DNA from: Promethearchaeia archaeon
Lineage (GTDB): Archaea; Asgardarchaeota; Lokiarchaeia; Sigyniarchaeales; SOKP01
DNA length: 64,000 nt
Reading direction: 5' to 3'
Assembly (NCBI GenBank): GCA_029856145.1
Contig: JAHQWK010000001.1
Location: 288,001 to 352,000 of the forward strand
Under the pieces are notes generated by a model, which was given only the letters and a program-made list of their open reading frames with translations, did not search any database and was not told the DNA's origin. The position numbers and the translations under genes are program-made. Positions 13,050 through 31,717 of the stretch are shown piece by piece (within the stretch, counting starts at the first letter, position 1; each line of letters starts with the position of its first letter).

Positions 13050-14663
13050 TTAAATGATTTTAGTTTTTAAAAACCGTAAATTTGTCTTTTTAACTTTTCG
13101 GTATATTAAAAATATTATAATATATCCCATAGTTGACCAAAGTATCCAAGATAAAGCTTGATAAGCATTTATATTTAAAATATAATTAATAAAATCCTCT
13201 AAAACGTAAAATCCAAAATCATTCAAATCACCTGGGAAATCTACTACTTTGGGATTAAGAACAATAGCAATTACTTGATGAGTATTTTTATTTAATGTTT
13301 CAAAAATATTTGTTATGGTTAAATTTGTTGGATCATCCAGCCTCATTTTAATGAAAGTATTTAAATCTTCATTTGTATGGATATCCGATCCTCCTATACA
13401 TGTTAGATTATTATCAAGACAAAACTGTCGTATTTGTAAATATTTCCCCAAATAACTTCCTCCGTTAACAATCTCAAATCCATCAACACCCCAATCTCTT
13501 AATTGAGTCAATGTATATGGAGCACCAAAACCACTTTTGGGATTAGGTTCATAATTATAATGATTGACCGTAATATATCCTCCATTTGCTTTTACATAGC
13601 TTATTGTATCTGAGGCGTTCAAGGCTATAGGTCCACCTGGAGTGTATGATTGAAGGGGTACAATTTCTTCAGCAAGGCCAAAATAATTCATATGGAGTTT
13701 AGGTTTTATTGCGTTATTAGTCCATTCTTCCGCTATTAGAACCACAAAATCTAAATTATTATCCTCAACATATTTTAGAGCCATTGTAGCACCTCTAATA
13801 TTGTCATGATCAGAAAAAGCAGCACCCGAAATTCCTTGCTTTATATACCAGTCAATTCTTTCTTCAACAGTTAACCAACCATCGCTAAAGGTAGTGTGAA
13901 CGTGGAAATCGAATAAAAACTCGTCATCTTCGAGTGGTATTGCCGGGATTATTTCATGAGTGGGAAAAGGAGTAGATATAAGCACAATATTGGCACTGAG
14001 TAGTATCACACCGATTCCAATATAATACACAGTTTCTCGCTTTATAGCTTGTTTTTTTGACTTTCTTTTTGGTTTTCGGTTTAATAATTTCCTAGATAAG
14101 TTAAGCGACAGTTTTGGATGAAAAAATTTGAGAATAGTGTACCCAATCTTGATGAAAATGAGAATCATACTTAAATGAACCGCTATTTGAACTGGTACCA
14201 TAAAATATCTACTCACAAAAAAATAGCCTTGAGCAATAAATCCAACAAGGATATAAATCCCAACTGTCAAAATAGAAAGACTCAACACTTTAAAAGAAAA
14301 ATAAATGATATCTGCTATTGGGTAAGTAATATATCTATATTTATCTGAACTAAACATCCCCCTTTTCTTTAAATACAAATAGATTCCTCTTAGAATTGGA
14401 TAAAATATTAAGAAAAGAAACATCCATGTGAATTCCATTTCTAAAATGTAAGCAAGTACATAAAAAGGCTCGACAAAATATCTCAGTAACGACAATTTAC
14501 TTGAGTATTCTGATGAAACATCAACTTGTCCAAGAGCATCATAGAATATTACCGTTCTTTGTCCAAAAATAGATAAAATTACAAGGAAAACAAGCCACAT
14601 TAGGAAAGCAATAGAAAGAATCGTGAAAAATTTATTTTTTTTTATTAAAGATTGAATCTTCAT
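13050..14663 (-). CDS. Membrane-bound PHP-domain phosphoesterase
   Basis: About 5 N-terminal TMs and 1 C-terminal TM; DFHVHTTFSDG, SDHD, NH and GGSDIH motifs. Confidence 0.87.
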   Translation of the reverse strand: MKIQSLIKKNKFFTILSIAFLMWLVFLVILSIFGQRTVIFYDALGQVDVSSEYSSKLSLLRYFVEPFYVLAYILEMEFTWMFLFLIFYPILRGIYLYLKKRGMFSSDKYRYITYPIADIIYFSFKVLSLSILTVGIYILVGFIAQGYFFVSRYFMVPVQIAVHLSMILIFIKIGYTILKFFHPKLSLNLSRKLLNRKPKRKSKKQAIKRETVYYIGIGVILLSANIVLISTPFPTHEIIPAIPLEDDEFLFDFHVHTTFSDGWLTVEERIDWYIKQGISGAAFSDHDNIRGATMALKYVEDNNLDFVVLIAEEWTNNAIKPKLHMNYFGLAEEIVPLQSYTPGGPIALNASDTISYVKANGGYITVNHYNYEPNPKSGFGAPYTLTQLRDWGVDGFEIVNGGSYLGKYLQIRQFCLDNNLTCIGGSDIHTNEDLNTFIKMRLDDPTNLTITNIFETLNKNTHQVIAIVLNPKVVDFPGDLNDFGFYVLEDFINYILNINAYQALSWILWSTMGYIIIFLIYRKVKKTNLRFLKTKII

Positions 14664-14732
14664 AATAGGTATTTTAATTGAATTTACTAATAAACTTTTT
14701 AAAAAAAGTAATTATAATCCAATCAAAAATTT

Positions 14733-15923
14733 TTAGGTTAATATATAATTATCTAAAGTTTTAAGTGATTTCACAAATTTTTGATAAATTCTGACATCTA
14801 CAATAGGCAATATTTCACAAATCTTTATTCTTAGGTCTTTTTCGTTAATTCGACATAATTTTGAGGGCTCTATCCCTTTTAAGATCAAGTATAATATTGG
14901 CATTTGAGGAGTAGATGGATGAAAATCATAATTTAGATATCTTACTGAGGATTTTAATTTATCAATTATGAATTTTTCAATTTCATGCTTATTTCTCATT
15001 TCAAAATTGATATAAATTGTTTCCCATAAATATTTTCGGTTTACTAATTGAATTATTTCGACTTTTTTTACAAATCTATCAAACCTTCTTGAAATTTCTA
15101 CTAAAAAAACACCTCGTTTATAGGAATTATCCATTGAACATACAGCTTCTGAAGAACCCGGGTTATAGATCCAATCTTCTAGTATAAATTGTTTATGAAA
15201 ATGACCTAAAGCTAAATAATCTATTCGATGTCGTAGGGGTTGAATATATTCTAATTTAATACCTGGAACATTATCCATCTGACCTTCAATGCCAAAATGC
15301 TGCAAAAGAATGTTAAATAGTTCACTTTTTTTAATTATCGCCTTTCTTATATTTGAAAGAAAAGAAATTGGTTGTTCCCCAAGGTAACGAGTACCATAAA
15401 TCACTATATTTTTGATTTGTATTTTTCCACCTTTATTAATATCAAAATTATAGGGTTCGAAGATTTCTTCTTGGGGTGCTTCTAAATCAGCATCAAGGAG
15501 GATTATCAATCCTAAGCTATTTAAAAGTTTTAACCATGACTGACCTCGTCGTTCGAATCTGATTCCCCTTGAAAATTTTCGGATATCATGATTACCCTCT
15601 ATTGCTATAATTAGAATTGATCCATTTGTAAATTCTTTGAAATCTCTCAATATGTCAACAATTTTAGTTAGATTTCCAGGGAGCATTTCTAGAGAGGTAA
15701 ATACATCACCACCCAGTATAATAAAATTAACATAATGCTTAATTGCTAATTCCAATATTTCTTGAAATGCTCGAATAAAATCATCTGACCGGAATTCATT
15801 TCTATACTGATGACTTCCCAAATGGATATCGCTTGCATGAATGAATCGGGTAACAATTTGAGTATTAGTAGATTTATTATGAAAATTCTCAAATTTAGCT
15901 TTAAATTGATTATTTGAAATCAT
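14733..15923 (-). CDS. Mre11/SbcD-like metallophosphoesterase nuclease
   Basis: SDIHLG, GGDVF, GNHD, LLQH, ALGHFH, YNPGS. Confidence 0.87.
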   Translation of the reverse strand: MISNNQFKAKFENFHNKSTNTQIVTRFIHASDIHLGSHQYRNEFRSDDFIRAFQEILELAIKHYVNFIILGGDVFTSLEMLPGNLTKIVDILRDFKEFTNGSILIIAIEGNHDIRKFSRGIRFERRGQSWLKLLNSLGLIILLDADLEAPQEEIFEPYNFDINKGGKIQIKNIVIYGTRYLGEQPISFLSNIRKAIIKKSELFNILLQHFGIEGQMDNVPGIKLEYIQPLRHRIDYLALGHFHKQFILEDWIYNPGSSEAVCSMDNSYKRGVFLVEISRRFDRFVKKVEIIQLVNRKYLWETIYINFEMRNKHEIEKFIIDKLKSSVRYLNYDFHPSTPQMPILYLILKGIEPSKLCRINEKDLRIKICEILPIVDVRIYQKFVKSLKTLDNYILT

Positions 15924-16075
15924 TTGTTTATAATATTAGATTTAAAATCGAAATAATATGTTATTTATTTTATTCAAATTTTTAAATGATAAAAGCCTGA
16001 AGATGTAGTGAAAAAAACACAATCTGATAAAATTAGTTAAAAATTTAATTATGTGAAAATAAACCTACTATAATA

Positions 16076-16645
16076 ATGCTAGAGAAAAATGTTAAATATG
16101 AACAAGGGGTAATTCATGGTAGATTCCAAGTATTGCATAATGATCATATCAAATATCTCTTAGCAGGTAAACAATTATGCAGGCATCTCGTAGTAGGTAT
16201 TACTAATCCTGATCCTTCCTTGACAAGAGATTCAGAAGCAAATCCCCATAGAAGCTCTCCAATAGCTAATCCATTAACTTACTACGAACGCTATTTAATG
16301 GTACAAGCAGCACTATTAGAGCAAGGCTTAAAATATTCGGAATTTTCTATTGTTCCTTTCCCTATCAACGTTCCAGAATTACTTAAATATTACATTCCGA
16401 TAGATGCTGTTTTCTTTCTAACAATTTATGATGACTGGGGTAGACAAAAAAAACAATATTTTGAATCTTTAGGATTAAAAATTCATGTCTTATGGGAAGT
16501 AACACTCGAGAATAAAGGACTTAGCTCAAATGATATTCGTGAAGATATGATTAAGGATAAACAATGGGAACAGTATGTACCTATAAGTGTGGCAAAACTC
16601 ATGAAAGATTGGGATATTATTAAGAGAATTAAAAAATTCAGTTGA
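16076..16645 (+). CDS. Nicotinamide/nicotinate-nucleotide adenylyltransferase (NadM-like)
   Basis: HGRFQVLHNDH (HxxH), NPLTYYER, SSNDIR...WEQYVP. Confidence 0.8.
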   Translation: MLEKNVKYEQGVIHGRFQVLHNDHIKYLLAGKQLCRHLVVGITNPDPSLTRDSEANPHRSSPIANPLTYYERYLMVQAALLEQGLKYSEFSIVPFPINVPELLKYYIPIDAVFFLTIYDDWGRQKKQYFESLGLKIHVLWEVTLENKGLSSNDIREDMIKDKQWEQYVPISVAKLMKDWDIIKRIKKFS

Positions 16646-16752
16646 GAAAATTGGAGAAAAAAAAACTATGAACTTTCGGCATATTTTAAGGCCAAATATA
16701 GGTAATAACAAATAATTATTAATATAACTCTGACTATATAACTATTTAATTA

Positions 16753-17520
16753 TTGGTTTTTGGTGGATACATAATCACTTTATTTATAATTAATCTTGAT
16801 AGAATTCTTGTAATTTACTTAACTCAAGGAATATTGGTAATCTTTTTTTCATTGCTAGCGTATCGAATATTAAAAAGAAAAAGACAACGATTAAACCTAA
16901 TTTTCAGTCTATTCTTTATATGTACAATTATCGGCACTATTTTTAATATGATTTATGCTCCTTTAGATCCAATACAACATGAACCAATTATCAAAATTCT
17001 TAATTTTTTCGCTAATTTCTTTGTTTTTTTTGCTCCAATCTTTATGGTCATTGTTAATTTTATTATATTAGAATCAACTCTAATATTCTCGGTAAAAAGG
17101 CAAAACAGGTATATTTTCTTTTATGGATTTTTAATTTTCTCCGGAATGTTAATATTAATCTTAATACCAGATCCACTAAACATTTTAGGAGTTGCAATTA
17201 CAGATGAGGGAAGACCAGAATGGGGTATAGTTTTTTTCATTTACATGGTTTCAATGCTTACGGGTTTTACATTCATCCCTATCTTTCGCACATCTTTAAA
17301 GATATACAATAGTTTAGAAACAAAAGAATTAAAGAAGAAATGGGTATACTATTTTATTGGTACTTTAGGAGTATTTAGTTGGGGTTATTTTATTTTTATA
17401 ACGAATTACTTTGGACATTATTTCGCCATCTTAAGGTCAATTTCATCAATATATGGAATTTCAATTATTATCTGGGTCTGTTTGATGTATTATGGAATTG
17501 GGTTTAAGTTAAAAAATTAA
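16753..17520 (+). CDS. Stand-alone 7TM receptor-like membrane protein (copy 1)
   Basis: Seven hydrophobic segments with basic loops after TM1, TM3 and TM5; paralog of 18963..19724. Confidence 0.8.
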   Translation: MVFGGYIITLFIINLDRILVIYLTQGILVIFFSLLAYRILKRKRQRLNLIFSLFFICTIIGTIFNMIYAPLDPIQHEPIIKILNFFANFFVFFAPIFMVIVNFIILESTLIFSVKRQNRYIFFYGFLIFSGMLILILIPDPLNILGVAITDEGRPEWGIVFFIYMVSMLTGFTFIPIFRTSLKIYNSLETKELKKKWVYYFIGTLGVFSWGYFIFITNYFGHYFAILRSISSIYGISIIIWVCLMYYGIGFKLKN

Positions 17521-17612
17521 TCGGATTCTATACAAGCTTGTCTTTTTGATATCAATAGTTTGCTTTTTAAATTCAGTTATTCTGAATATAAAATTTACTG
17601 ATAAGATTTCTA

Positions 17613-17649
17613 TTTTTTCACGGGACAAATTAGAAAAATATTAAATATG
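17613..17649 (+). promoter_or_regulatory. Conserved operator plus BRE/TATA-like element upstream of GNAT copy 1
   Basis: TTTTTTCACGGGACAAAT-TAGAAAAATATTAAATATG aligns ungapped with 19800..19836. Confidence 0.55.
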
Positions 17650-17695
17650 AAAAGAATTAAACAATAAATGAAAAACTGCTAACAATAGGGAAATT

Positions 17696-18799
17696 ATGCA
17701 AACAACTAGTGAAAATTATTTATTAGACCAAGAAAAACATACTTATTTTCATAGATTTATTGCAAAAAATGGAGAAGAATTTGGATTAAGATTTGGAACT
17801 CCTCGTGATGCAAAAGCTCTTTCTATGATTTTTAAAGAGGTATATGGCTATAAATATGCGTATCCTATCGTTTATGATATAAATCATCTAAAAAGGGAAC
17901 TATCAAACAAAAATAAATTTTGGATTGTAGGTGAATTAACAAATAATCATGAAATTGCTGGTTTTGGATTAATAGAAAAAAAAAGATATATTGCTCATGC
18001 TAGCCAAGCTGTTGCAAAGAAAAAATTTCATGGTTTAGGAATTTTAGCAAAACTTGGTGCGGCCGGTGTGATATATGTTATAAAGATGCCTCAATTCAAA
18101 GATGTGCTAAGACTTGATGGAGAAACTCGAGGATTGAAAATTGGCGCACAAAATCTTATTCGAAATGCAGGGGCGTTTCCTTATGGGTTAATTCCTGCAT
18201 ACATTAATTATGGAGACAAGAGGAAATTTAAAATTGATGAAACGACACCAGTCCCACCACTAAAAGAAGAAGCTGCGTTTCTTTATTCAATTATATTTAA
18301 TAAATTATGGCGTAAAAGAGATAAAAACGTCTATTTATTAAATAATGGGGATTTCATCTTTTTTTATAATTACGTTAAAAAAATGTCTAATAAAATGAAA
18401 AAAGACCGTCTGAATTTAGAAAGGGGTAAGAAAGATAAAGGGTATGAACTTTATGGGTTTTCCAAGGATCTCTATGAAGGGAGAGTGAGTTTGTATGGAT
18501 ATATTAAAGAAAAATCATTGAATAATTTGCTTAAAACTTATCACAATTGGAGAATTTTAGTATGGAGAATCCCTACCACTCAAAATGGGATACATTCAAT
18601 GTCCCTTGCTCTTGAAAAAGGATTTAATATAGTTGGATATGATATAGGTTTTAATAATATAAATTGGACTTTATTTGATTCAGTTATACTCGCATACTAT
18701 CCCAACGGGGGCTCTCACGTTTTAAAAGTAAAATGTATGGATGAGAATAGACCTCTTCTTAATAAGATTAGAGAAATATTTTTTTCTCGTGTCAATTGA
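17696..18799 (+). CDS. GNAT-fold acyltransferase, long form (copy 1)
   Basis: DA...FKEVYGYKYAY, AHASQAVAKKKFHGLG (motif A); paralog of 19885..20982. Confidence 0.78.
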   Translation: MQTTSENYLLDQEKHTYFHRFIAKNGEEFGLRFGTPRDAKALSMIFKEVYGYKYAYPIVYDINHLKRELSNKNKFWIVGELTNNHEIAGFGLIEKKRYIAHASQAVAKKKFHGLGILAKLGAAGVIYVIKMPQFKDVLRLDGETRGLKIGAQNLIRNAGAFPYGLIPAYINYGDKRKFKIDETTPVPPLKEEAAFLYSIIFNKLWRKRDKNVYLLNNGDFIFFYNYVKKMSNKMKKDRLNLERGKKDKGYELYGFSKDLYEGRVSLYGYIKEKSLNNLLKTYHNWRILVWRIPTTQNGIHSMSLALEKGFNIVGYDIGFNNINWTLFDSVILAYYPNGGSHVLKVKCMDENRPLLNKIREIFFSRVN

Positions 18800-18962
18800 T
18801 TACGCCTTTAATTTACTTAATCATTAAAATTTCTGTTATATATAATTATAGCGATTTTTTGAATTAAAATTTGGTTAAATATTTGTTATTAAAGCGATTA
18901 GAATATAGTTATATATTTATGAGCAAATATTATACTACCTATAAAAATTAATAATAATCTTA

Positions 18963-19724
18963 TTGGTGGAAAAAACGTCATATCAAGCTGAAATACCGAG
19001 AATTATAATGGTTTATGTGTTTTTGGGAATTTTAGTACTCTATTTTTCAATAATTACTTATAAAGTTTTAAAGAGAAAAAGGCAACGTTTAAATTTTGTT
19101 ATTAGTGGTTTTTTTGTCAGTATATCCATTGGGTTTATTTTAAATATGGCATATGCAGCCATGACTGATAGAATAACTATTCTAATTCTTAATTTCTTAA
19201 CTAATTACTTCATATTTTTTGGACCAGTCTTTCTACTTATTGTAAATATGATAATATTAGAATCAACTCTTATTTATTCTGTAAAAAGACAAAATAGGTA
19301 TATATTATTTTATGGAATCTTGCTCTTCGCAGGGATGTTAATATTAGTCTTATTAGGAGAAATATTTGATACTCCTAATGTACCATTTTTAGGAGTCCAA
19401 ATAATTAATAACGCACCAAAATGGGGGCCTTTATTTTTTGCCTATGTAGTTTCAATTATGTCTATTTTTACACTTATTCCAATAAATTATACAAATTTTA
19501 AAATCTACTTCCAGTTTGAAACAAAGGCATTGAAAAGAAAGTGGTTTTTCTATTTATTTGGCTTTTTAGGATTAACAGTGATTTTATATTTTAGTATTAT
19601 ATTTAATCTTTTGGATGCTATTATTTATGCTGATGTTAGATTAATAATAACTCTATCAATAAGTAGTGTAATAATCTGGGGTTATATGATGTATTATGGG
19701 ATTGGAATTGAATTAAAGAAGTAA
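18963..19724 (+). CDS. Stand-alone 7TM receptor-like membrane protein (copy 2)
   Basis: Seven TMs; shares LKRKRQRLN, IILESTLIxSVKRQNRYI and MYYGIG with copy 1. Confidence 0.8.
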   Translation: MVEKTSYQAEIPRIIMVYVFLGILVLYFSIITYKVLKRKRQRLNFVISGFFVSISIGFILNMAYAAMTDRITILILNFLTNYFIFFGPVFLLIVNMIILESTLIYSVKRQNRYILFYGILLFAGMLILVLLGEIFDTPNVPFLGVQIINNAPKWGPLFFAYVVSIMSIFTLIPINYTNFKIYFQFETKALKRKWFFYLFGFLGLTVILYFSIIFNLLDAIIYADVRLIITLSISSVIIWGYMMYYGIGIELKK

Positions 19725-19799
19725 TGCCTTAACCTTTTTTCTTGAATTTAATAATTCGCGTTATTTTTCAGAATCTTTATTCTGTAACTTATTTTTAAT

Positions 19800-19836
19800 T
19801 TTTTTCACGTGAAAAAATAGAAAATTTTATATTATG
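19800..19836 (+). promoter_or_regulatory. Perfect 18-bp palindrome plus BRE/TATA-like element upstream of GNAT copy 2
   Basis: TTTTTTCACGTGAAAAAA followed by TAGAAAATTTTATATTATG. Confidence 0.6.
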
Positions 19837-19884
19837 CTCCGAGAAGAATTAATTAACTAGTTAAAAATAGATCGGGATATTAGG

Positions 19885-20982
19885 ATGGCAACCATCATTA
19901 AAAAAGGATTAGATCTTCAAGAAGAGGATGCTTATTTTCAAAAATCTAAATTTAAAAATGGACAGGAATATGGATTAAGGTTTGCTATTCCAAAAGATGC
20001 TACAATTATCTCATCTCTGTTCAAAGAAAGCTATAATTATGAATATCCTTATCCTTATGTTTACGATATCGAACTTTTAAAAAAGGACATTTCAAAACCT
20101 AATAAATTTTGGGTCCTAAGCGATTTATTAGAAAATAAAGTGACTGTTGGCTGTGCCTTAGTCGATAAAGAAAGATACATCGCCCATGCTGGGTGTTTAA
20201 TTGTGAAGAAAGATTTTCGGAGGCAAGGAATTACAAAAAATTTGGCAGCAGCAGGGCTTTTAACAGTTACAAAAATGCCTCAATTTAAAGATGTTTTAAG
20301 ACTTAATGTTGAAGTTCGTGCTCCATTAACTCAAGTTCAAACTTCTGCTCAAAATGCGGGGGCAATACCTTATGGTATAATACCTAGTCACATTAAATTA
20401 ACAGATAACAGATATTTTGATATTAATGATAATAAGCCATGTTCCCCCCAAAATGAAGAATTCAGTACAGTACTTTATTCAATGATTTTTAGAAACCTAT
20501 GGAAGAAAAGAGACAAAAATGTGTTTCTATTAGATAATGAAGATTTAATCTTCTTATATGAATATATTAGAAGTCAAGCTAAAAAAATGAAAGACGATAC
20601 ATTAATCCTTAAAAACAAGAAAAGGAGTAAAGGATATGAACTTTATGGTGTTTCTAAAGATTATTATTTGGCACATGTGAAATTATTTGGCTATATTAAA
20701 GAAAAATCTCTTAATCATTTATTAAATACTTATAGGAATTGGCGAATGATCCTATGGAAAGTTCCGACTACTGAAAATGGAATATCTTCGATGTCTATAG
20801 CCTTAAAAAAAGGATTTAAAGTGGTGGGTTATGATATTGGGTTTAATAACATAAATTGGACCTTATTTGATTCAATTATACTAGCATACTATCCTAATGG
20901 AAATTACGTGTTGTCAGATATAAATTGTTCAGATACAATAAAACCTCTTTTTAACAGGATAAAGAAACAATTTAAGACTTAG
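19885..20982 (+). CDS. GNAT-fold acyltransferase, long form (copy 2)
   Basis: LIVKKDFRRQGIT (motif A); shares KMPQFKDVLRL, KGYELYG and VGYDIGFNNINWTLFDS with copy 1. Confidence 0.82.
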   Translation: MATIIKKGLDLQEEDAYFQKSKFKNGQEYGLRFAIPKDATIISSLFKESYNYEYPYPYVYDIELLKKDISKPNKFWVLSDLLENKVTVGCALVDKERYIAHAGCLIVKKDFRRQGITKNLAAAGLLTVTKMPQFKDVLRLNVEVRAPLTQVQTSAQNAGAIPYGIIPSHIKLTDNRYFDINDNKPCSPQNEEFSTVLYSMIFRNLWKKRDKNVFLLDNEDLIFLYEYIRSQAKKMKDDTLILKNKKRSKGYELYGVSKDYYLAHVKLFGYIKEKSLNHLLNTYRNWRMILWKVPTTENGISSMSIALKKGFKVVGYDIGFNNINWTLFDSIILAYYPNGNYVLSDINCSDTIKPLFNRIKKQFKT

Positions 20983-21087
20983 ATTTAACAATTACCAACT
21001 GTTAATTAAAATTCTCAAATGAACTTATTAAAAAATTATCAAAAAGTACTGAAAAATAGCTGATCTCGTTAAATTTTCATTCTTTAA

Positions 21088-21543
21088 TCATGATAATAGC
21101 GAAATCACTTTTTCTTCAAAAGTTTGAGTACCTGTTCCAAAAATTTTAGTGAGGGATTGTTTAAAAGGTTCAAATTGGCCAACTTTCGTAAGATTAGAGC
21201 CATCAAAATGAGAAATAAATCTTTTTAAAAACTTTTCCAATAAGGGTAAAATTGATTTTTTTAAATACTTCTCAAGTCTATAATCTTTATCCAAAACTAT
21301 GAAAGCAACAATTTCCTGAACATCTCTAAATAAATCTTTTATTGTACCTTTCTTAAAAATTATTGAATATTTATCACTTTCAAAATATTCTACTGGTTCC
21401 ATCAAACATTCGGCAAAACTCAAGAGCCCACTCATTAATCCACTTGAACAAACTAAATTAGTTTGACTTTTACTAGCTCTATGATAGCTGATGAATATAA
21501 TGGGAATTCCATGGAAGATTATACCGGCTTCTCGAATCAACAT
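21088..21543 (-). CDS. Free longin-like domain protein
   Basis: Beta-beta-alpha-beta-beta-beta-alpha pattern: IREAGIIFHGIPII, SGLMSGLLSFAE, YSIIFK, IVAFIVLD, QFEPFKQSLTKIF. Confidence 0.7.
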   Translation of the reverse strand: MLIREAGIIFHGIPIIFISYHRASKSQTNLVCSSGLMSGLLSFAECLMEPVEYFESDKYSIIFKKGTIKDLFRDVQEIVAFIVLDKDYRLEKYLKKSILPLLEKFLKRFISHFDGSNLTKVGQFEPFKQSLTKIFGTGTQTFEEKVISLLS

Positions 21544-21811
21544 AATGAATTCTGAAGTAAATTAAACCAAATCGCTGTTACGGATATTCTTATAAGAATA
21601 CTCCTAATATTCGACAAAATTCTCATATATAAATATAAGTCTTTTCGAACATATTTCGTCGCGATAGTACAATATTAATGCTAAACAGAAAATACGTCGA
21701 ATAAAAAAATTCTCTCAATAAAATATCTCTGAAAAGAATTTTATAGGATTTTAAAAAAAATTTTGTTTCAAATTATACTAAAATAGGGTTTTATTGCAAC
21801 TAATAGCACAT

Positions 21812-22942
21812 TTATGTTGAAAAAATCTCATCAATGATATTTTTAACTGGGTAAAATACAGTTAAATCTCCATTCCAATTAATCAAAATGTTATTATATA
21901 TTTCTTCAACCTTCAGAACTAATCTTTTTAGATTATATGTAAAATATTTCAATTCCTCTTTACTAATTAAAATTCCTGTAATATAATTGGCAGAAAAAAC
22001 ATTTACTATTTTTCTTTTTTTCTTTATAACAGAAATTTCATTAGGTTTGCCATGAATCAATTCATTAAGCATGATATTCATAGAAGCTAAAGCTCCAGAT
22101 ATAAATTGCTTTTCTAAAATTTCAGTATTCTCCATAAAGGAATAATTATATAAACAAATTCCATTTTTATTCAAGATATATATACTTTCAATTTTATCTT
22201 GCCAGTCATATTCAAAGAATGAAGGAATTTTTCTAAAAAAAATGAAGATAAAGCCAATAGCTATTAGTTGGAGGAGGATTCCTATAAATCGAACTAAAAG
22301 GTTTAAATTTTCAAGAAGTAGATCCATCGAAAGAATATATCCCACTAATATAAGTAGGATTGTAAGTGTCATTTTTAGGGCTCCCTTAGGGAGTATATTT
22401 TGTTTTTTCGATTTTTTACCAAAATCTATAACATAAATTATAAAAAACAAAATAAATAAAGGAAAAGACAGAAATGAAAGCACATTAATGATTTCTAAAT
22501 TAATGAAGAATATGACTATAAAAATTAATAATTGAATTAAAAAACAAGTGGTAAAAAAAAATCTTTTGAATAAGAATTTTTTATATTTTTCCATGAATAA
22601 CGTAAAAAATAAGGTACTTAACATTATTGATAGAAATCCAAAATTTAATAAAAGACTTCTAAAACTCCCAATGGTCCATAGAAAAAAAGGAGAAATGATA
22701 AGATCACTAGAGTAGTAGTCACCTAATAAAAAGAAGAACCTCATTAATGAAAATCCGCTAAATAATGCGAAAAATCCTAAATCTTGAGAATTTTTAAGTG
22801 GCTTTGGCTGTTTTTTATATTTGATTAAAAATAGTAGACCTAATTCAAAAGATAAGAATATGAAAATCCAATCCATTACTAAGGATAAAAATCTATGTGG
22901 ACCAATAATAGGAAATTCTGTAAATAAAATATTAATCATCAT
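21812..22942 (-). CDS. 7TM-longin fusion protein
   Basis: Seven TMs, linker PSFFEYDW, then IESIYILNKNGICLY...FISGALASMNIMLNE...WNGDLTVF (Asgard longin-like). Confidence 0.8.
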   Translation of the reverse strand: MMINILFTEFPIIGPHRFLSLVMDWIFIFLSFELGLLFLIKYKKQPKPLKNSQDLGFFALFSGFSLMRFFFLLGDYYSSDLIISPFFLWTIGSFRSLLLNFGFLSIMLSTLFFTLFMEKYKKFLFKRFFFTTCFLIQLLIFIVIFFINLEIINVLSFLSFPLFILFFIIYVIDFGKKSKKQNILPKGALKMTLTILLILVGYILSMDLLLENLNLLVRFIGILLQLIAIGFIFIFFRKIPSFFEYDWQDKIESIYILNKNGICLYNYSFMENTEILEKQFISGALASMNIMLNELIHGKPNEISVIKKKRKIVNVFSANYITGILISKEELKYFTYNLKRLVLKVEEIYNNILINWNGDLTVFYPVKNIIDEIFST

Positions 22943-22945
22943 CCA

Positions 22946-24091
22946 TTATTGTAAAATTCTATTAATAATAACTTCAAAACTCGAAAATAATTTTCCTTGA
23001 TCGCCCTTTAAATCCTCCAAATCTAATAAAATCTCTTTAAAAAAAGACTCAAATTTAATTCTTATAGATTTTAGAAGATGATGAGTACTACTTAAATCCC
23101 TTTTTACAACTAAAATATATGTTATATGAGAAGGATTCAATCCATATTCTAAGAACATATGAAAATCTCCTTTCTTTATTTTATTTATTTTTTCTTTTAT
23201 GGTACCTGTGATAATTGTAATAATACTTTCGATTCCCATTATTCCTTTAGAAAACAGTATCTCATTATTATATAAATGATTTTGACTTATTTTACTATTA
23301 TTTTCAAGTTTTTCAATAAAATTATAACTATAAATGCAACTTTTGTTGTGTTGATTAATTATAAATAATTTTAAGAGGTTGTTTCTCCATTCAAATTCAT
23401 AAAATGGAGGAAAGTCATAAACAGAAAAGAAGATAATAATGAAACCCGTCAATAATTCACCTACTCCTGTGAAATATATTATTTCATTAATAACTGGAGG
23501 TAAAACACCCAAACCAACCAATGAAGCAAAAACTAATGCAAATAAACTTACAATTGCTCCAATGAGAAATAATTTAAACTTTTTCCTGATACTACCTATT
23601 GATTTTTTAATCAAAATTAATTGAAATCTGATTATATATAATCCATTTAAAACAACAAATAAGATGCTTAAAATAAAAATTGGTGAACCTAGGTAAGGTA
23701 CTAATAAAATCATAACAATAGGTATGATATTAAAGATCATCAAGATTTTAGCAATATTTAGATTTATTATAATTGAAAAATCCTTTCTAATTATGAAAAT
23801 GGAGACGCTAAAAGTAGAAAAAAAAGCAAAAAACCAACCCATTCTTGAAAAGAGTTCATATAAAATTCTATCTTCAATGAAATTCCTTGATATTTGTATT
23901 AGTAATGGACCTAAAATTATGAACAAAACAAATGACCCAAATGCTAGTAATACTCTATTTAAGGGAAGAGTTATATCTTGAATTTTGCGATATTGGAAAA
24001 AAAAGTATAAGGCTAATTGAATACCTATAATTACCGGTACCAGATAAGCCAGAAATTGCAGTTCTTTACTAATTTCAATTTGAGAAAGCAT
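22946..24091 (-). CDS. 7TM-longin fusion protein
   Basis: Seven TMs, linker PPFYEFEW, then LLKLFII...LFSKGIMGIESII...ITYILVVK...FESFF. Confidence 0.78.
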   Translation of the reverse strand: MLSQIEISKELQFLAYLVPVIIGIQLALYFFFQYRKIQDITLPLNRVLLAFGSFVLFIILGPLLIQISRNFIEDRILYELFSRMGWFFAFFSTFSVSIFIIRKDFSIIINLNIAKILMIFNIIPIVMILLVPYLGSPIFILSILFVVLNGLYIIRFQLILIKKSIGSIRKKFKLFLIGAIVSLFALVFASLVGLGVLPPVINEIIYFTGVGELLTGFIIIFFSVYDFPPFYEFEWRNNLLKLFIINQHNKSCIYSYNFIEKLENNSKISQNHLYNNEILFSKGIMGIESIITIITGTIKEKINKIKKGDFHMFLEYGLNPSHITYILVVKRDLSSTHHLLKSIRIKFESFFKEILLDLEDLKGDQGKLFSSFEVIINRILQ

Positions 24092-24220
24092 TTTTTATAT
24101 TTACGTAAAAAAATTAAACTGAATTTGAATTTTTTAATATTATTTTCCTGAAAGCACTATAAATATTATTCTCTTTTTCTTAAATTCAATAATTAATATT
24201 TAAACAGAGTATTTAACCAT

Positions 24221-24754
24221 TTATATTAATTGAAAATCTTTTAAAATTCTTTTCAATAAAGATTCGAATATATCTTCCACGTTTTCCCCTGTTTTGGATG
24301 AACATTCTATATAATCAAAGAAATTATATTGATGTCTTATTTTTTCTGCTTCCTTCTTTGAAACTGCTATTTGATCCTTAAGATCTAACTTACCTCCAAC
24401 CAGTATGATTGGAGGATTTTGTTTTCCAGGAGATAAACCCTTTTTAAAAGTATCCAACCATTCTTTAACTCTAATTAATGTTCCATATCTAGTAAGATCA
24501 AACATAAAGATGCCACCAGAAGATCCCCTTGAGTATAATGGTAGTAAAAAATGAAACTCTTTTTCACCACCAAAATCCCACACTTGCAATACTATTCTTT
24601 TATCTTCAATTTTTAGAAATTTTATAAAAATTTCTGCTCCCATTGTAAGCTTAATGTCTTCATCAAAATACCCTTTAAGAAATCGCTGAGCTAATGTAGT
24701 TTTTCCTACACCACTTTCTCCAAAAATGCAAATTTTGTAAGCTAATTCTCCAAT
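24221..24754 (-). CDS. Rab-like small GTPase (Ras superfamily), about 177 aa, probable ATT start
   Basis: The frame extends upstream of the called ATG (24643) through YKICIFGESGVGKTT (G1) and LTMG (G2); also WDFGGE (G3), GGKLD (G4) and CSSKTG (G5). Confidence 0.92.
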   Translation of the reverse strand: MGELAYKICIFGESGVGKTTLAQRFLKGYFDEDIKLTMGAEIFIKFLKIEDKRIVLQVWDFGGEKEFHFLLPLYSRGSSGGIFMFDLTRYGTLIRVKEWLDTFKKGLSPGKQNPPIILVGGKLDLKDQIAVSKKEAEKIRHQYNFFDYIECSSKTGENVEDIFESLLKRILKDFQLI

Positions 24755-25021
24755 AATAGGCTCCCTCTTTTCTACATTTTATGATTAATAACTATCTGAA
24801 TTCGATTCTTTTAGAAATCGAAAACCTCAACCGAATTTATATTATTAAAGAGAAAAATGCTTGTTCTATTTGAAAACTCGAAAATAAAGCTAAGGCGAAT
24901 TTTCTTTTCTCTATTGTATTAAATAAAATCTTAAATATTTAAATCTATTTTAAAACCTTCTGATAAATCGAGAATTAGTTTTCCAAAATTGTTAAAATTA
25001 AAAAAAATTTTAAAAAAAAAT

Positions 25022-26458
25022 TTACTTCCTCTTTCGCTTAGGTTCAATTTTTTTAATAATTATTGATTCTGCATGGACTTTGCAATTCTTCAAAATTATT
25101 TTGAAGCCACCCGCTCCACCAACACCAGGGATAGTCATTCCTACAGTTCCCATTGGAACCATCGCACCTTCTTCTTCCCATTCCTCTTCCTCTTCTACGC
25201 CACCAGCAGCAGCTTTATATTCTTCAGTTTCTATAATTGGGTGGCCAACTTTTTCTAACCATGCCGGTAATTCACTTAGATCTGAAACCTCATCTTCAGT
25301 TGCAATTTTATCTCTTAGATCTTCTGGAAGGAATTCATAAACTCTATCTTTAACGGTTTTACCCATCCATACGATAGTGTAAATCCCTGCCTCCAATCCT
25401 GATTTTATACCATCATATTTTTGGTATTTAGGTGATATAATATATTGTATGCTTATGCCATTAAATCCTGGCATTTGTTTACCTCCACCCGTCTGATTTG
25501 CCATCGCACTAAAAGGTAGCCCATTGATAGCAACTCCATCGTGATTTCGATCGATTATTCCATGACCTGCTCCTGTCTCAGGAATAAAGAAATCTATTGC
25601 TTCAAAGCAGCCGCAACTAGTATGAGGGAACACCATTCCGCTGTAGAGATAAATTCTATCTATGTCTCCAAGTGAACGCTTTTTTATCATTTCATTAACT
25701 CCTTGGAACTCACCTGCTAATTCGTTTAAACACTCACCCATAGGTACCTCGAACAATGGCCCTTTCGGATCAACACGCGCAGCAGCTCTTGCATCAAACC
25801 ATGAGATAGAACCGCATAAACTCATTCGATTTGGTGTTATACAACATGCATGAGTAGGAGCAAAACTCTGGCATAAAACACAGCCATAAAACATATCTAC
25901 ATCTTCATCGTTTATACTACGAGCTCTTTCGTCTCGTTTATTGTATATTTCTAAGGCAAAATCATAGGTCTCTTTAATTTTATTTGGATCTGTATAGAAT
26001 GTAACTTGGGCTTTTTTAATGATTGGAAGTTCAGCTTTATACAGTCTAATTAAAATAGTTCCAAGCATCTGAAAATTATCAAATCCTTTTTCTACAGCAG
26101 CTTTAGAAATTCGCATCCAATTAGTATATCTTTGGTTCAAATGCATTATTCCATTTACAAAATTGCAAAATTCATGAACTCTACGTTCGAACACGGCCTC
26201 GAGGTCTTCTTCAAGCTCAGGGCCAGCTACTTCTACTAAAATTCCTATAGGGTGTCTTGATCCTACTTCCATGTCTTTTATATCGGGACCGATAAGAGTT
26301 ACTTTTCCATCTTCAATTTCCTTATCTTTTTTAACCCTCACGAGTTCATAATGTTTCTCAACTTTTGGACCACCAAGCTCTACATACATTTGGTTTCCTC
26401 GAATTCTTTCACCTTCATATACTGGTCCAACATCTACAGGCATATCTGCAAAACTCAT
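25022..26458 (-). CDS. cdhC: Acetyl-CoA decarbonylase/synthase complex subunit beta (ACS)
   Basis: YEGERIR, ERRVHEF, GCVLCQSFAPTH, LCGSISW, PHTSCGCFE. Confidence 0.96.
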   Translation of the reverse strand: MSFADMPVDVGPVYEGERIRGNQMYVELGGPKVEKHYELVRVKKDKEIEDGKVTLIGPDIKDMEVGSRHPIGILVEVAGPELEEDLEAVFERRVHEFCNFVNGIMHLNQRYTNWMRISKAAVEKGFDNFQMLGTILIRLYKAELPIIKKAQVTFYTDPNKIKETYDFALEIYNKRDERARSINDEDVDMFYGCVLCQSFAPTHACCITPNRMSLCGSISWFDARAAARVDPKGPLFEVPMGECLNELAGEFQGVNEMIKKRSLGDIDRIYLYSGMVFPHTSCGCFEAIDFFIPETGAGHGIIDRNHDGVAINGLPFSAMANQTGGGKQMPGFNGISIQYIISPKYQKYDGIKSGLEAGIYTIVWMGKTVKDRVYEFLPEDLRDKIATEDEVSDLSELPAWLEKVGHPIIETEEYKAAAGGVEEEEEWEEEGAMVPMGTVGMTIPGVGGAGGFKIILKNCKVHAESIIIKKIEPKRKRK

Positions 26459-26496
26459 ATTTAATTTCTCCTCTTATTTTTTTTTTCAATAATATT

Positions 26497-27036
26497 TTAT
26501 AATTTTTCAATCAAATTTTCTAAAAATGTTTTCCATTCTTCCTCGTTTAGATTTGGTAAACTAAATCTAGCATTTGGATGAGAATATTTATCTAGATCAA
26601 TTGTTCTTAACCAGTTTGTAAAGTTTTTGAGCCGTGATAATGCTTGAGAAACATAGAAAACTATGTGTCCTCCAAATATAGCCATTGAATATTGTCCTTC
26701 TCCATCTAAACCTGCCCAATCTTTATCAGATAAACGGTTTGTAATATTTATCAAAGACATATCATATAATTTATGATCTGCTATCTTATCTTTTAAATAA
26801 CTGTATGCGTGTCCTGTAGAAACTACATGACAATCAAATTTATTTGCTATTTCTATGAAGTAGTCCGCAACTTTTTTACCATCAAGCTCCCAATTTAAAG
26901 ATTCAGCACCAATAACGAAAACACTCTTCTTAGGAGTTTTAAGTAAATTCACCATCACCATTGGATCTGAAACAGAAGTACCCATCTCAGGGCCTGGGAT
27001 ATTAGCTTTTTGATATGGACGTGCCATTTCACTCAA
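26497..27036 (-). CDS. cdhB: ACDS/CODH complex subunit epsilon
   Basis: PYQKANIPGP, WAGLDGEGQY, LDKYSHPNARFSLPNL; directly upstream of cdhC. Confidence 0.9.
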   Translation of the reverse strand: MSEMARPYQKANIPGPEMGTSVSDPMVMVNLLKTPKKSVFVIGAESLNWELDGKKVADYFIEIANKFDCHVVSTGHAYSYLKDKIADHKLYDMSLINITNRLSDKDWAGLDGEGQYSMAIFGGHIVFYVSQALSRLKNFTNWLRTIDLDKYSHPNARFSLPNLNEEEWKTFLENLIEKL

Positions 27037-30140: not shown

Positions 30141-30917
30141 TTAGCAGAATTTTTTTCTAAAGTTCTTAATATATTGTTCTTTATCCTCATACTCATACCA
30201 AGCTGAGCCAATTTTCTCTAGCTCATATGCAGCATTATAAGCTTTATCACCCAAGTGATTGCTACATAGCTTAATTGCATTCAATACTGTTTGATTTTTA
30301 GTAAACAGAAATTTTGCCTTATCCAACGCAACTTTCATTAATTCTTCTTGGTTTTCTACTATTTGGTCTATTAAGCCGATTTCTAATGCTTTTTCAGCAC
30401 TAATTTTTTCAGCAAACATAAGTATCTTTTTTGTCCAAGGGATTCCAATGACTCTTGTCATCAACACTATGATACCCGTACCCGGAAAAACTCCTAAATT
30501 TATCTCAGGCATCATAAAAAAACAATCTCTAACGGCTATTCGATAATCAGAACATAACGTATACGCTACACCATCACCCATTGCTTTACCGTTAATTGCA
30601 CAGATGACTGGTTTTCCATAATAGAACAATTCTTGGATAGACGCTGCTGTTTTTTCATAGTCTTTTACAGCGGTCTTATCACTCCCATCAATTTCATTAA
30701 TATCCATCCCTGTAGTAAAAGATACTCCATTTCCAGTTAATATTATCCCTCTTATTTTTTCTGAACTTTGGCAAAATTCGATAGCCTTTTTTAGATTCTT
30801 TGCCATTTCAGTCGTAATTGCGTTTCCTCTATGGACTCGATTCAAATTTATGATTCCAAACTTCTTTTTTATCGAAAATTCAATAAATTCTCCAAATTCT
30901 TTATTTTCTGATGACAT
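30141..30917 (-). CDS. Enoyl-CoA hydratase/isomerase family (tandem paralog B)
   Basis: LNRVHRGNA, KPVICAING, MPEINLGVFPG. Confidence 0.92.
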   Translation of the reverse strand: MSSENKEFGEFIEFSIKKKFGIINLNRVHRGNAITTEMAKNLKKAIEFCQSSEKIRGIILTGNGVSFTTGMDINEIDGSDKTAVKDYEKTAASIQELFYYGKPVICAINGKAMGDGVAYTLCSDYRIAVRDCFFMMPEINLGVFPGTGIIVLMTRVIGIPWTKKILMFAEKISAEKALEIGLIDQIVENQEELMKVALDKAKFLFTKNQTVLNAIKLCSNHLGDKAYNAAYELEKIGSAWYEYEDKEQYIKNFRKKFC

Positions 30918-30940
30918 TTTTTATTCCCATATAATTTTTC

Positions 30941-31717
30941 TTATTTCAATTTTTTTCTAAAATTTTCTATAAATTCAATTTTATCTGAATATTCATACCA
31001 AGATGAAGCTTCCTTTTCTATATGATATGCCACGTGGTATTTTTTATCTGCTAAGTGATTACTACATAACTTTATTGCATTTAGAACTGTTTGATTTTTA
31101 GTAAATAAAAACTTAGCTTTATTTAATGCAGCTTTCATTAAATCTTCTTTATTATTTACAATTTGATCTATTAATCCAATTTTTAGAGCTTTTTGTACTT
31201 TTATTTTTTCAGAAAACATACACATTTTCTTTGTGTATGGAATTCCAAGGATTTTCGAAAAGATAACTAAACAACCAGTACCAGTAAAAATTCCTGAAAA
31301 GATTTCCGGCATTTGAAAGAAGCTTTCTTTGGTAGCAATTCGATAATCACAACACGCTGAATAGACAACACCCTCACCCATAGCTCTTCCATTAATAGCG
31401 CAAATTGCTGGTTTTCCATTATATATTAATTTACAAATATCTGCTGCAGTTCCTTCCAAATATTTCACAGCTTCATGATCACTCCCATCAATAGCTCCTA
31501 AATCTACTCCGGTACTAAAAGAAGTTCCATTGTTAGTTAAAATTAAACCTCTAATTTTCTCGTCCTTCTGGCAATATTTTACAGCTTGTTTTAAATTTTC
31601 GAATTGTTTAATATCAAAAGCATTTGACCTATGAAGTCTATTAAGTGTAATAATTCCAAATCGCTTTTTTATTGTAAAATCAATATATTCTCCAAATTGC
31701 AAATTATTTGAAGACAT
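30941..31717 (-). CDS. Enoyl-CoA hydratase/isomerase family (tandem paralog A)
   Basis: LNRLHRSNA, KPAICAING, MPEIFSG. Confidence 0.92.
   Translation of the reverse strand: MSSNNLQFGEYIDFTIKKRFGIITLNRLHRSNAFDIKQFENLKQAVKYCQKDEKIRGLILTNNGTSFSTGVDLGAIDGSDHEAVKYLEGTAADICKLIYNGKPAICAINGRAMGEGVVYSACCDYRIATKESFFQMPEIFSGIFTGTGCLVIFSKILGIPYTKKMCMFSEKIKVQKALKIGLIDQIVNNKEDLMKAALNKAKFLFTKNQTVLNAIKLCSNHLADKKYHVAYHIEKEASSWYEYSDKIEFIENFRKKLK

What the first reader, a model, noticed from the sequence alone, without database searches (positions are those of the whole stretch)
16753..24778. Whole 8-kb block may be one signalling island (four 7TM proteins, two GNATs, three longin domains, one GTPase)
Seen: eight consecutive genes in two convergent arms with no metabolic gene between them, flanked by unrelated genes (NadM-like, cdhC). 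Inference: the output-less 7TM proteins could pair in trans with the free longin, making a split version of the neighbouring 7TM-longin fusions. That would give several inputs converging on one GTPase.
Basis: inference. Interest (0 to 1): 0.75.

Follow-up and report, generated by a model that had tools for sequence, protein, structure and literature searches.

The report
Two Asgard 7TM-longin modules, adjacent
This stretch of an Asgard archaeon's genome is not one signalling island but two separately inherited gene sets that sit side by side, each joining GPCR-shaped membrane proteins to longin domains (the fold eukaryotes use to switch Rab GTPases), which gives two testable candidates for membrane-receptor signalling in our closest prokaryotic relatives.

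Summary
The eight genes are real (contigs from three studies), but they are two modules, not one island. Module 1 (solo 7TM + tandem GNAT + solo longin) fills the NadM-cdhC slot in most genomes of the genus, is lost as a unit, and recurs in shuffled order in three other genera. Module 2 (Rab-like GTPase + two 7TM-longin fusions) is class-wide: the fusions are paired in 71/71 loci, a GTPase is adjacent in 33/71 (background 2.9%), and module 1 is beside them in only 4 other genomes. In the genus they co-occur at the rate independence predicts (12 versus 12.1), and this GTPase's orthologue was found in only 9/54 genomes, so convergence on one GTPase is unlikely. The first 7TM-GNAT pair is an extra copy from another lineage. 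The 'split fusion' idea survives: the solo 7TM has a GPCR-like fold and is remotely similar to one fused 7TM, and the solo longin resembles the fused longin. No binding or activity is shown. The scan noted module 2 and 7TM-longin pairs on other genomes before; I found no paper on either module.

The parts
16753..17520 (+). A: stand-alone 7TM protein (255 aa), extra copy, sister to the G017 orthologue
   Evidence: 50% to C; 67% to G017, about 50% to G008/G016; tree 100/99 with G017
17613..17630 (+). Imperfect copy of a palindromic motif (TTTCACGTGAAA core) about 80 nt upstream of the GNAT start; candidate operator
   Evidence: same motif at -77 to -90 in about 20 of 37 genus loci
17696..18799 (+). 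B: GNAT-family protein, 367 aa (N-terminal GNAT domain plus C-terminal region of unassigned fold), extra copy
   Evidence: 54.5% to D; 77% to G017
18963..19724 (+). C: stand-alone 7TM protein (253 aa), native copy of module 1; GPCR-like/HisKA_7TM-like fold, no TM7 lysine
   Evidence: 88% to G008; ADGRL3 Z 17.3, rmsd 3.4, 215 aligned; HisKA_7TM clusters TM 0.68-0.72
19800..19817 (.). Perfect 18-bp palindrome about 80 nt upstream of GNAT D; candidate operator
19885..20982 (+). D: GNAT-family protein, 365 aa, native copy of module 1; acetyl-CoA-binding motif A largely kept in the family
   Evidence: PF00583 22.4 bits, cut-off 20.7; 83-84% to G008/G016
21088..21543 (-). E: solo longin-like protein (151 aa), third gene of module 1
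   Evidence: HHalign 64-74% to F longin; reversed control 0.3%; Fuz_longin_1 cluster 0.90, 34% of members; iterated F-longin HMM hits 100/101 E sequences in overlapping loci; weak, E 0.6, to Loki longin 8YQG
21812..22942 (-). F: 7TM-longin fusion (376 aa), downstream partner of module 2
   Evidence: (99.7% to G)
22946..24091 (-). G: 7TM-longin fusion (381 aa), 3 nt from F; 7TM residues 7-224, longin 237-381
   Evidence: (ADGRL3 Z 13.4; TRAPP 3CUE_C Z 13.1; Mon1-Ccz1 9RS6_B Z 12.5)
24221..24754 (-). H: Rab-like small GTPase (about 177 aa), probable ATT start, G1 intact, G3 DFGGE, G4 GKxD, no C-terminal cysteine motif
   Evidence: (Ras 3e-39)

Best explanation
The block is two independently inherited signalling modules that share a variable slot between the NadM-like gene and cdhC. 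Module 2 (H-G-F): the two paralogous 7TM-longin proteins most likely form a membrane heterodimer whose longin pair is a Mon1-Ccz1/TRAPP-like platform that binds the lipid-less Rab-like GTPase and changes its nucleotide state, gated by whatever the 7TM bundles sense (pairing and GTPase linkage shown genomically; binding, GEF or GAP activity and ligand gating inferred, about 55%). Module 1 (C-D-E, plus the extra A-B): a receptor-shaped 7TM without an output domain works with a solo longin as a split version of a 7TM-longin, and the GNAT adds an acyl-CoA-dependent step, acetylating a module protein or making a small acylated ligand (three-gene linkage shown; physical coupling inferred, about 40%). 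Its target GTPase, if any, is encoded elsewhere among about 54 paralogues. A-B is an extra cassette gained from a G017-like lineage.
For: Module 1 as a unit: GNAT and E-type longin co-occur in 37/37 and are both missing in 12/12 genus genomes; in G074, G085 and G109 NadM and cdhC stay syntenic while all three genes are replaced by unrelated ones; outside the genus the trio recurs with other flanks and orders in G150 (E>7TM>GNAT), G147 (E>7TM><GNAT) and G144 (7TM>GNAT><E), and 7TM-GNAT in G056, G075, G073, G117; a second solo 7TM lies directly upstream of E on the same strand in G023, G107, G015, G024, G100, G153. Module 2 as a unit: G paired with F in 71/71 loci, small GTPase adjacent in 33/71 against 2.9% for random gene pairs here; 21 of 27 adjacent GTPases in the tree form one clade with only one other paralogue of this genome (support 92); the longin of G matches Rab-GEF longins best. 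Independence: of 49 genus genomes 37 have the GNAT, 16 a G match, 12 both (12.1 expected); only 4 have them adjacent; H orthologue in 9/54. A-B origin; G131 has the same locus without A-B.
Against: All function is inferred from neighbourhood and predicted folds. The modules are adjacent in five genomes, and in G023, G107 (and broken in G017) H>G>F>7TM>E is one co-directional run, which could reflect selection for cross-talk. Genomes of one genus are kin, so co-occurrence counts overstate; 38/71 G-F loci have no adjacent GTPase; one GNAT clade of 16 rows lacks an adjacent 7TM. Solo 7TM versus F 7TM gives no direct profile match (1-3%). E has no structural model. Most genomes are incomplete MAGs.
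Confidence: 0.72

Rival explanations
1. One reading: the whole 8-kb block is one signalling island; the solo 7TMs pair with the free longin and all four receptors converge on the one GTPase H.
For: Both modules adjacent in five genomes of the genus; H>G>F>7TM>E co-directional in G023 and G107; solo 7TM remotely like G 7TM and E like F longin.
Against: 25/37 module-1 genomes have no G match and H orthologues were found in 9/54; 67/71 G-F loci lack module 1; co-occurrence equals independence (12 vs 12.1); the slot also takes unrelated genes such as CooF-CooS-oxidoreductase; genome has about 54 small GTPases and 39 longin-like ORFs.
Confidence: 0.12
2. Module 1 is a synthase-receptor pair: the GNAT makes an acylated small molecule (amine or amino acid) that its own 7TM senses, and the longin is the receptor's output adaptor or incidental. 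Compatible with the two-module view, differing in the role of the GNAT.
For: 7TM and GNAT were gained together as the A-B cassette without E; 7TM-GNAT adjacency is commoner than the full trio outside the genus; weak matches to small-molecule N-acetyltransferases AblB, SpeG, DpA; candidate operator upstream of the GNAT.
Against: The same searches also hit protein N-acetyltransferases (RimI, Ard1); all matches are weak; a 16-member GNAT clade has no adjacent 7TM; no substrate evidence.
Confidence: 0.25
3. No functional linkage in module 1: the three genes hitch-hike in a syntenic block and an insertion hot spot.
For: Unrelated neighbours (PHP, Mre11-like, NadM, cdhBC) are just as syntenic in the genus; solo 7TMs (138/151 genomes) and E-family longins (130/151) are common and mostly lie elsewhere without each other.
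Against: The trio is lost together while the flanks stay and recurs in three other genera with different order, orientation and flanks; with 4-5 solo 7TMs among 3,226 genes chance adjacency is about 0.3%.
Confidence: 0.08
4. The doubled cassette or the junction of the two modules is a chimeric assembly of two strains.
For: A-B and C-D group with different lineages; genome contamination 5.4%.
Against: Single contigs span A to F in X1 and A to E in X3 (another study), overlapping contigs tile the rest at even depth, no joint skips a cassette.
Confidence: 0.02

Closest known systems
Longin-heterodimer Rab GEFs: Mon1-Ccz1, BLOC-3 (Hps1-Hps4), TRAPP core, CPLANE
   Same: G longin is structurally closest to these (Z 13.1 TRAPP 3CUE_C, 12.5 Mon1-Ccz1, 12.3 BLOC-3, 12.0 CPLANE); two paralogous longins always encoded as a pair beside a Rab-like GTPase.
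   Different: One longin per chain, fused to a 7TM bundle; the GTPase has no prenylation motif and has GKxD in G4; no activity shown; Z scores of GEF and non-GEF longins (adaptins, VAMP7, SRX; Z 10-11.6) are close.
Prokaryotic 7TM sensor domains: HisKA_7TM (PF16927) and 7TMR-DISM_7TM (PF07695)
   Same: The solo 7TM model matches HisKA_7TM-bearing clusters at TM 0.68-0.72 over about 220 residues; one archaeal cluster of its own family is auto-named after it.
   Different: Those domains are fused to kinases, GGDEF, HD or PAS outputs; this family is stand-alone (149 of the best 150 representatives at most 261 aa); only 1/148 and 2/148 members hit the Pfam models at E<=0.01.
Eukaryotic GPCRs (adhesion and class C closest)
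   Same: Seven-helix bundle: ADGRL3 Z 17.3, GPR156 16.7, CD97 16.6 for C; ADGRL3 13.4 for G.
   Different: 5-16% identity, Foldseek E>0.001; linked genes are longins, a Rab-like GTPase and a GNAT, not a heterotrimeric G protein. Fold likeness only.
Actinobacterial G protein systems (conservons; PMC13621833)
   Same: Operon logic of membrane sensor + roadblock/longin-superfamily regulator + small Ras-like GTPase.
   Different: Conservons use a histidine kinase, MglB roadblock and a CvnC protein; none is in this block; here the sensor is a 7TM and the regulator a longin.
Asgard longin, 7TM and small GTPase repertoire (10.1101/2020.10.19.343400; PMC10933270; 10.64898/2026.10.28.762692)
   Same: Longins fused to signalling domains, Rab-like GTPases and '7TM proteins' are catalogued Asgard features.
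   Different: None of the passages found describes 7TM-longin fusions paired with a GTPase or a 7TM-GNAT-longin set; Tran et al. state that MK-D1 GTPase genes are generally not in operons with longins, which makes matching difficult; module 2 offers such a match.

Membership tests
   G017, G023, G107, G131, 4 of about 35 genus loci where the slot can be seen
   12 genomes with both vs 12.1 expected; 67/71 G-F loci without module 1; H orthologue 9/54
   Solo vs G 65-95% HHalign, above reversed, shuffled and unrelated-family controls; solo vs F 1-3%; same top fold match. Likely remote homology, not proven
   Needs transcriptome reads
Longin-heterodimer Rab GEF (Mon1-Ccz1/TRAPP type) | Longin fold in both partners | tested here: met
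   G by structure; F by profile to G longin 99.4%
Longin-heterodimer Rab GEF (Mon1-Ccz1/TRAPP type) | Heterodimer of the two longins | not tested
   Only genomic pairing 71/71
Longin-heterodimer Rab GEF (Mon1-Ccz1/TRAPP type) | Catalyses nucleotide exchange on a Rab | not testable with these tools
   Needs assay
Longin-heterodimer Rab GEF (Mon1-Ccz1/TRAPP type) | Tri-longin chains or multi-subunit TRAPP assembly | tested here: not met
   Single longin after a 7TM in each chain
GPCR | Seven-helix bundle of GPCR-like geometry | tested here: met
GPCR | Sequence homology to a GPCR class | tested here: not met
   No GPCR Pfam hit among 148, 74 and 71 members; 5-16% identity in fold matches
GPCR | Acts as GEF on a heterotrimeric G protein | not testable with these tools
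   No such gene in the block; the linked GTPase is Ras/Rab-like
HisKA_7TM (PF16927) | Pfam gathering-level match | tested here: not met
   1/148 members at E 0.005 only
HisKA_7TM (PF16927) | Same fold | tested here: met
   TM 0.68-0.72 between predicted models
Microbial rhodopsin | Retinal-binding lysine in helix 7 | tested here: not met
   0% lysine at positions 227-244 across 148 solo 7TMs; none in F/G helix 7 consensus
GNAT superfamily (B, D) | Acetyltransf_1 domain with acetyl-CoA motif A | tested here: met
   PF00583 above cut-off for D; G at motif positions in 33/43 and 41/43
AblB beta-lysine acetyltransferase (TIGR03827) | Equivalog cut-off 205 bits | tested here: not met
   14 bits
Rab GTPase (eukaryotic) | Ras-family G domain | tested here: met
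   PF00071 3e-39
Rab GTPase (eukaryotic) | C-terminal prenylation cysteines, NKxD, catalytic Gln | tested here: not met
   No C-terminal Cys; GKxD; DFGGE
Conservon/AGPS | Histidine kinase + MglB roadblock + CvnC + GTPase | tested here: not met
   Only the GTPase is present

The most novel reading that the evidence does not exclude
Lokiarchaeia use a family of GPCR-fold 7TM receptors that signal to lipid-less Rab-like GTPases through longin domains, either fused as an obligate heterodimer (F-G on H) or split into a solo 7TM plus solo longin tuned by a dedicated acetyltransferase (C-E-D): a receptor-gated longin GEF system joining the GPCR fold to Rab regulation in Asgard archaea.
Probability: 0.3. 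Interest if true: 0.88.

Novelty: new variant of a known kind. Interest (0 to 1): 0.56.

Why it matters
How Asgard small GTPases reach membranes without prenylation and which regulator serves which GTPase is open; a published study notes that operons rarely give the match (PMC10933270). Module 2 gives a named GTPase with named membrane-bound longin partners, directly testable by exchange assays. Module 1 adds a second, separately conserved set in which a receptor-shaped 7TM, a solo longin and an acetyltransferase stay together through rearrangement, a combination I found in no paper. If true, GPCR-shaped receptors and Rab-GEF longins were already wired together in an Asgard lineage. The specific finding (one island feeding one GTPase) is the weaker reading, and the exact eight-gene layout is a one-species mosaic.

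Tried and rejected
Complex prediction of C + D + E with E as partner: verdict 'no answer' (score 0.60, but the control with D replaced scored 0.52); not used as evidence either way; the single job should have been the pair C + E. Search for longer fused forms of the solo 7TM (477-2000 aa) found none, which the tool calls weak evidence; among the best 150 representatives one 329-aa protein has a short extra tail. Shallow-profile comparisons of solo and fused 7TM gave 2-3%; only deeper alignments gave a signal. Pfam/NCBIfam name none of A, C, E, F, G. No RNA holder listed, so co-expression was not examined. Promoter scan equals shuffles (62 vs 62.2) and uses a bacterial model. No remnant of the second solo 7TM in the F-E spacer. 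Chimera hypothesis tested and rejected. Rhodopsin, AblB and conservon membership rejected. The search for related loci with A8 failed for lack of conserved stretches; with A5 it returned no bacterial titles. Liu et al. supplements are not held, so a table entry for 7TM-longin asCOGs cannot be excluded.
Full report
Observation. The eight ORFs are present as described between a NadM-like gene and cdhC. I call them A (7TM), B (GNAT), C (7TM), D (GNAT) on the plus strand and E (solo longin), F, G (7TM-longin), H (GTPase) on the minus strand. Spacers are 107, 175, 163, 160, 105, 268, 3, 129 and 267 nt. A/C are 50% and B/D 54.5% identical. H has no common start codon before its P-loop; orthologues carry ATG in the register of an ATT at 24754, and contigs of three studies have the same letters. 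The block is no chimera: single contigs span 15000-22208 (X1) and 17043-21099 (X3) at even depth. Related loci carry Promethearchaeota/Lokiarchaeia labels.

Folds. C is modelled at pLDDT 93.8 with seven helices and an extracellular hairpin. Its best solved matches are GPCRs (ADGRL3 Z 17.3, rmsd 3.4, 215 residues; Foldseek E only 0.002) and its nearest predicted neighbours outside its family are HisKA_7TM sensor domains at TM about 0.7. There is no helix-7 lysine. The family is stand-alone: 417 representatives, the best 150 nearly all 261 aa or less. G has a 7TM (ADGRL3 Z 13.4) and a longin whose best matches are TRAPP, Mon1-Ccz1, BLOC-3 and CPLANE subunits (Z 12-13). F and G are paralogues over their whole length (99.7%). 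With deep alignments the solo 7TM aligns to the 7TM of G over about 190 columns (65-95%, E 6e-5 to 4e-8) while reversed, block-shuffled and unrelated membrane families give at most 8%; it does not align directly to F. E aligns to the F longin at 64-74% against 0.3% reversed, with weak independent hints. B and D have an N-terminal GNAT domain with motif A largely kept; their nearest named look-alikes are bacterial 320-400 aa GNATs; the substrate is unknown. H is Ras/Rab-like with GKxD, DFGGE and no prenylation motif.

Neighbourhoods, module 1. In the genus the order NadM > 7TM > GNAT >< E is nearly constant, followed by a variable slot and cdhC. Unrelated genes are equally syntenic, so this alone proves little. 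Three tests go further. GNAT and the E-type longin are both found in 37 and both missed in 12 of 49 genus genomes. In G074, G085 and G109 NadM and cdhC remain neighbours while 7TM, GNAT and E are all replaced, in G085 by CooF-CooS-oxidoreductase. Outside the genus the trio reappears with new flanks and orders in G150, G147 and G144 (three genera), and 7TM-GNAT alone in G056, G075, G073 and G117. A second solo 7TM sits directly upstream of E on its strand in six genus genomes. One GNAT clade lacks the adjacent 7TM, so the link is not universal.

Neighbourhoods, module 2. A G-profile match is found in 82/151 genomes of the class. In 71 fetched loci G always has an F partner, a small GTPase is adjacent in 33 (2.9% expected from this genome), and solo 7TM/GNAT are near in only 4. 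Of 27 adjacent GTPases in a tree, 21 form one clade with a single other paralogue of this genome (support 92, FastTree).

Independence. Among 49 genus genomes 37 have the GNAT, 16 a G match and 12 both, against 12.1 expected if unlinked (descriptive only, kin are not independent). The modules are adjacent in G017, G023, G107, G131 and here, and unlinked in for example G004, G007, G024, G100, G153. Orthologues of H were found in 9/54 genus genomes, all but one (at a contig edge) next to G. Module 1 therefore usually exists without H. The genome has about 54 small GTPases and 39 longin-like ORFs, so proximity does not single out H as target of E.

The doubled cassette. Only this genome of 38 with the GNAT in the genus sample has two copies. 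C and D group with G008/G131/G016 like the flanking genes (83-88%), A and B group with G017 (67%, 77%). G131 has the same locus without A-B. A-B is best read as a cassette gained from another lineage (inference; old paralogy with losses is not excluded, no rooted test was run).

Mechanism. Shown: gene sets, folds, remote similarity, separate inheritance. Inferred: F-G heterodimer acting on H as a membrane-anchored longin GEF or GAP (about 55%), from the established role of longin heterodimers; C-E as a split 7TM-longin with the GNAT modifying a component or making a ligand (about 40%). The rival of one circuit gets 12%.

Prior knowledge. Searches of the paper library found Asgard longins, Rab-like GTPases and 7TM proteins catalogued, but no description of these modules; supplements of Liu et al. 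were not available. The scan itself noted module 2 and 7TM-longin pairs on other genomes, with follow-ups, and first readers noted 7TM-GNAT-longin cassettes; these are unchecked notes, not support.

Verdict. Observation confirmed; interpretation partly supported. Two modules, new variant of membrane sensor + longin + small GTPase signalling; interest 0.56; novel case 30% at 0.88.

Noticed in passing
window 24754-24752 (-): The GTPase appears to start at ATT where G023, G107 and G153 have ATG; the next ATG (24643) would give a protein without the P-loop. Could lower expression or mark early decay.
   Followed up: partly
window 17613-17630 and 19800-19817: Palindrome with core TTTCACGTGAAA about 80-87 nt upstream of the GNAT start, kept in about 20 of 37 genus loci; not a large regulon elsewhere in the genome.
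   Followed up: partly
window 25022-27036: cdhB-cdhC stand without adjacent cdhA/D/E; in G085 (L307:5689-9451) the slot beside cdhC holds CooF-CooS-oxidoreductase instead of the signalling genes.
   Followed up: partly
L276-L305; L095:9224-10408: The other solo 7TM paralogues usually come as tandem pairs followed by a 115-aa helix-hairpin-helix protein (25 cases), without a longin.
   Followed up: partly
L061:11205-11630 and upstream: In G017 the second solo 7TM between F and E is broken by several stops.
   Followed up: no
L168, L169, L171: In genus g14 the H-G-F run is flanked on both sides by about 520-aa proteins containing a small GTPase domain.
   Followed up: no
L184, L189, L190, L191, L219: Arrays of three to six 7TM-longin genes (G-F-G-F, G-F-F), suggesting receptor-like expansion.
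   Followed up: no
L067:10523-11915; L325: The solo longin E is tandemly duplicated in G002 and G139.
   Followed up: no
L205:4271-4750; L208:4266-4724: In genus g12 a different E-family longin follows a G-F pair on the same strand, a second case of G-F plus solo longin.
   Followed up: no
G000 C3:216873-219321 (outside the window): A second tandem pair of 366 and 380 aa proteins with weak hits to the F longin profile.
   Followed up: no
window 13050-15923: Membrane-anchored PHP-domain protein and Mre11-like phosphoesterase, syntenic across the genus and unrelated to the modules.
   Followed up: no
window 30141-31717: Two tandem enoyl-CoA hydratase-like paralogues of 258 aa.
   Followed up: no
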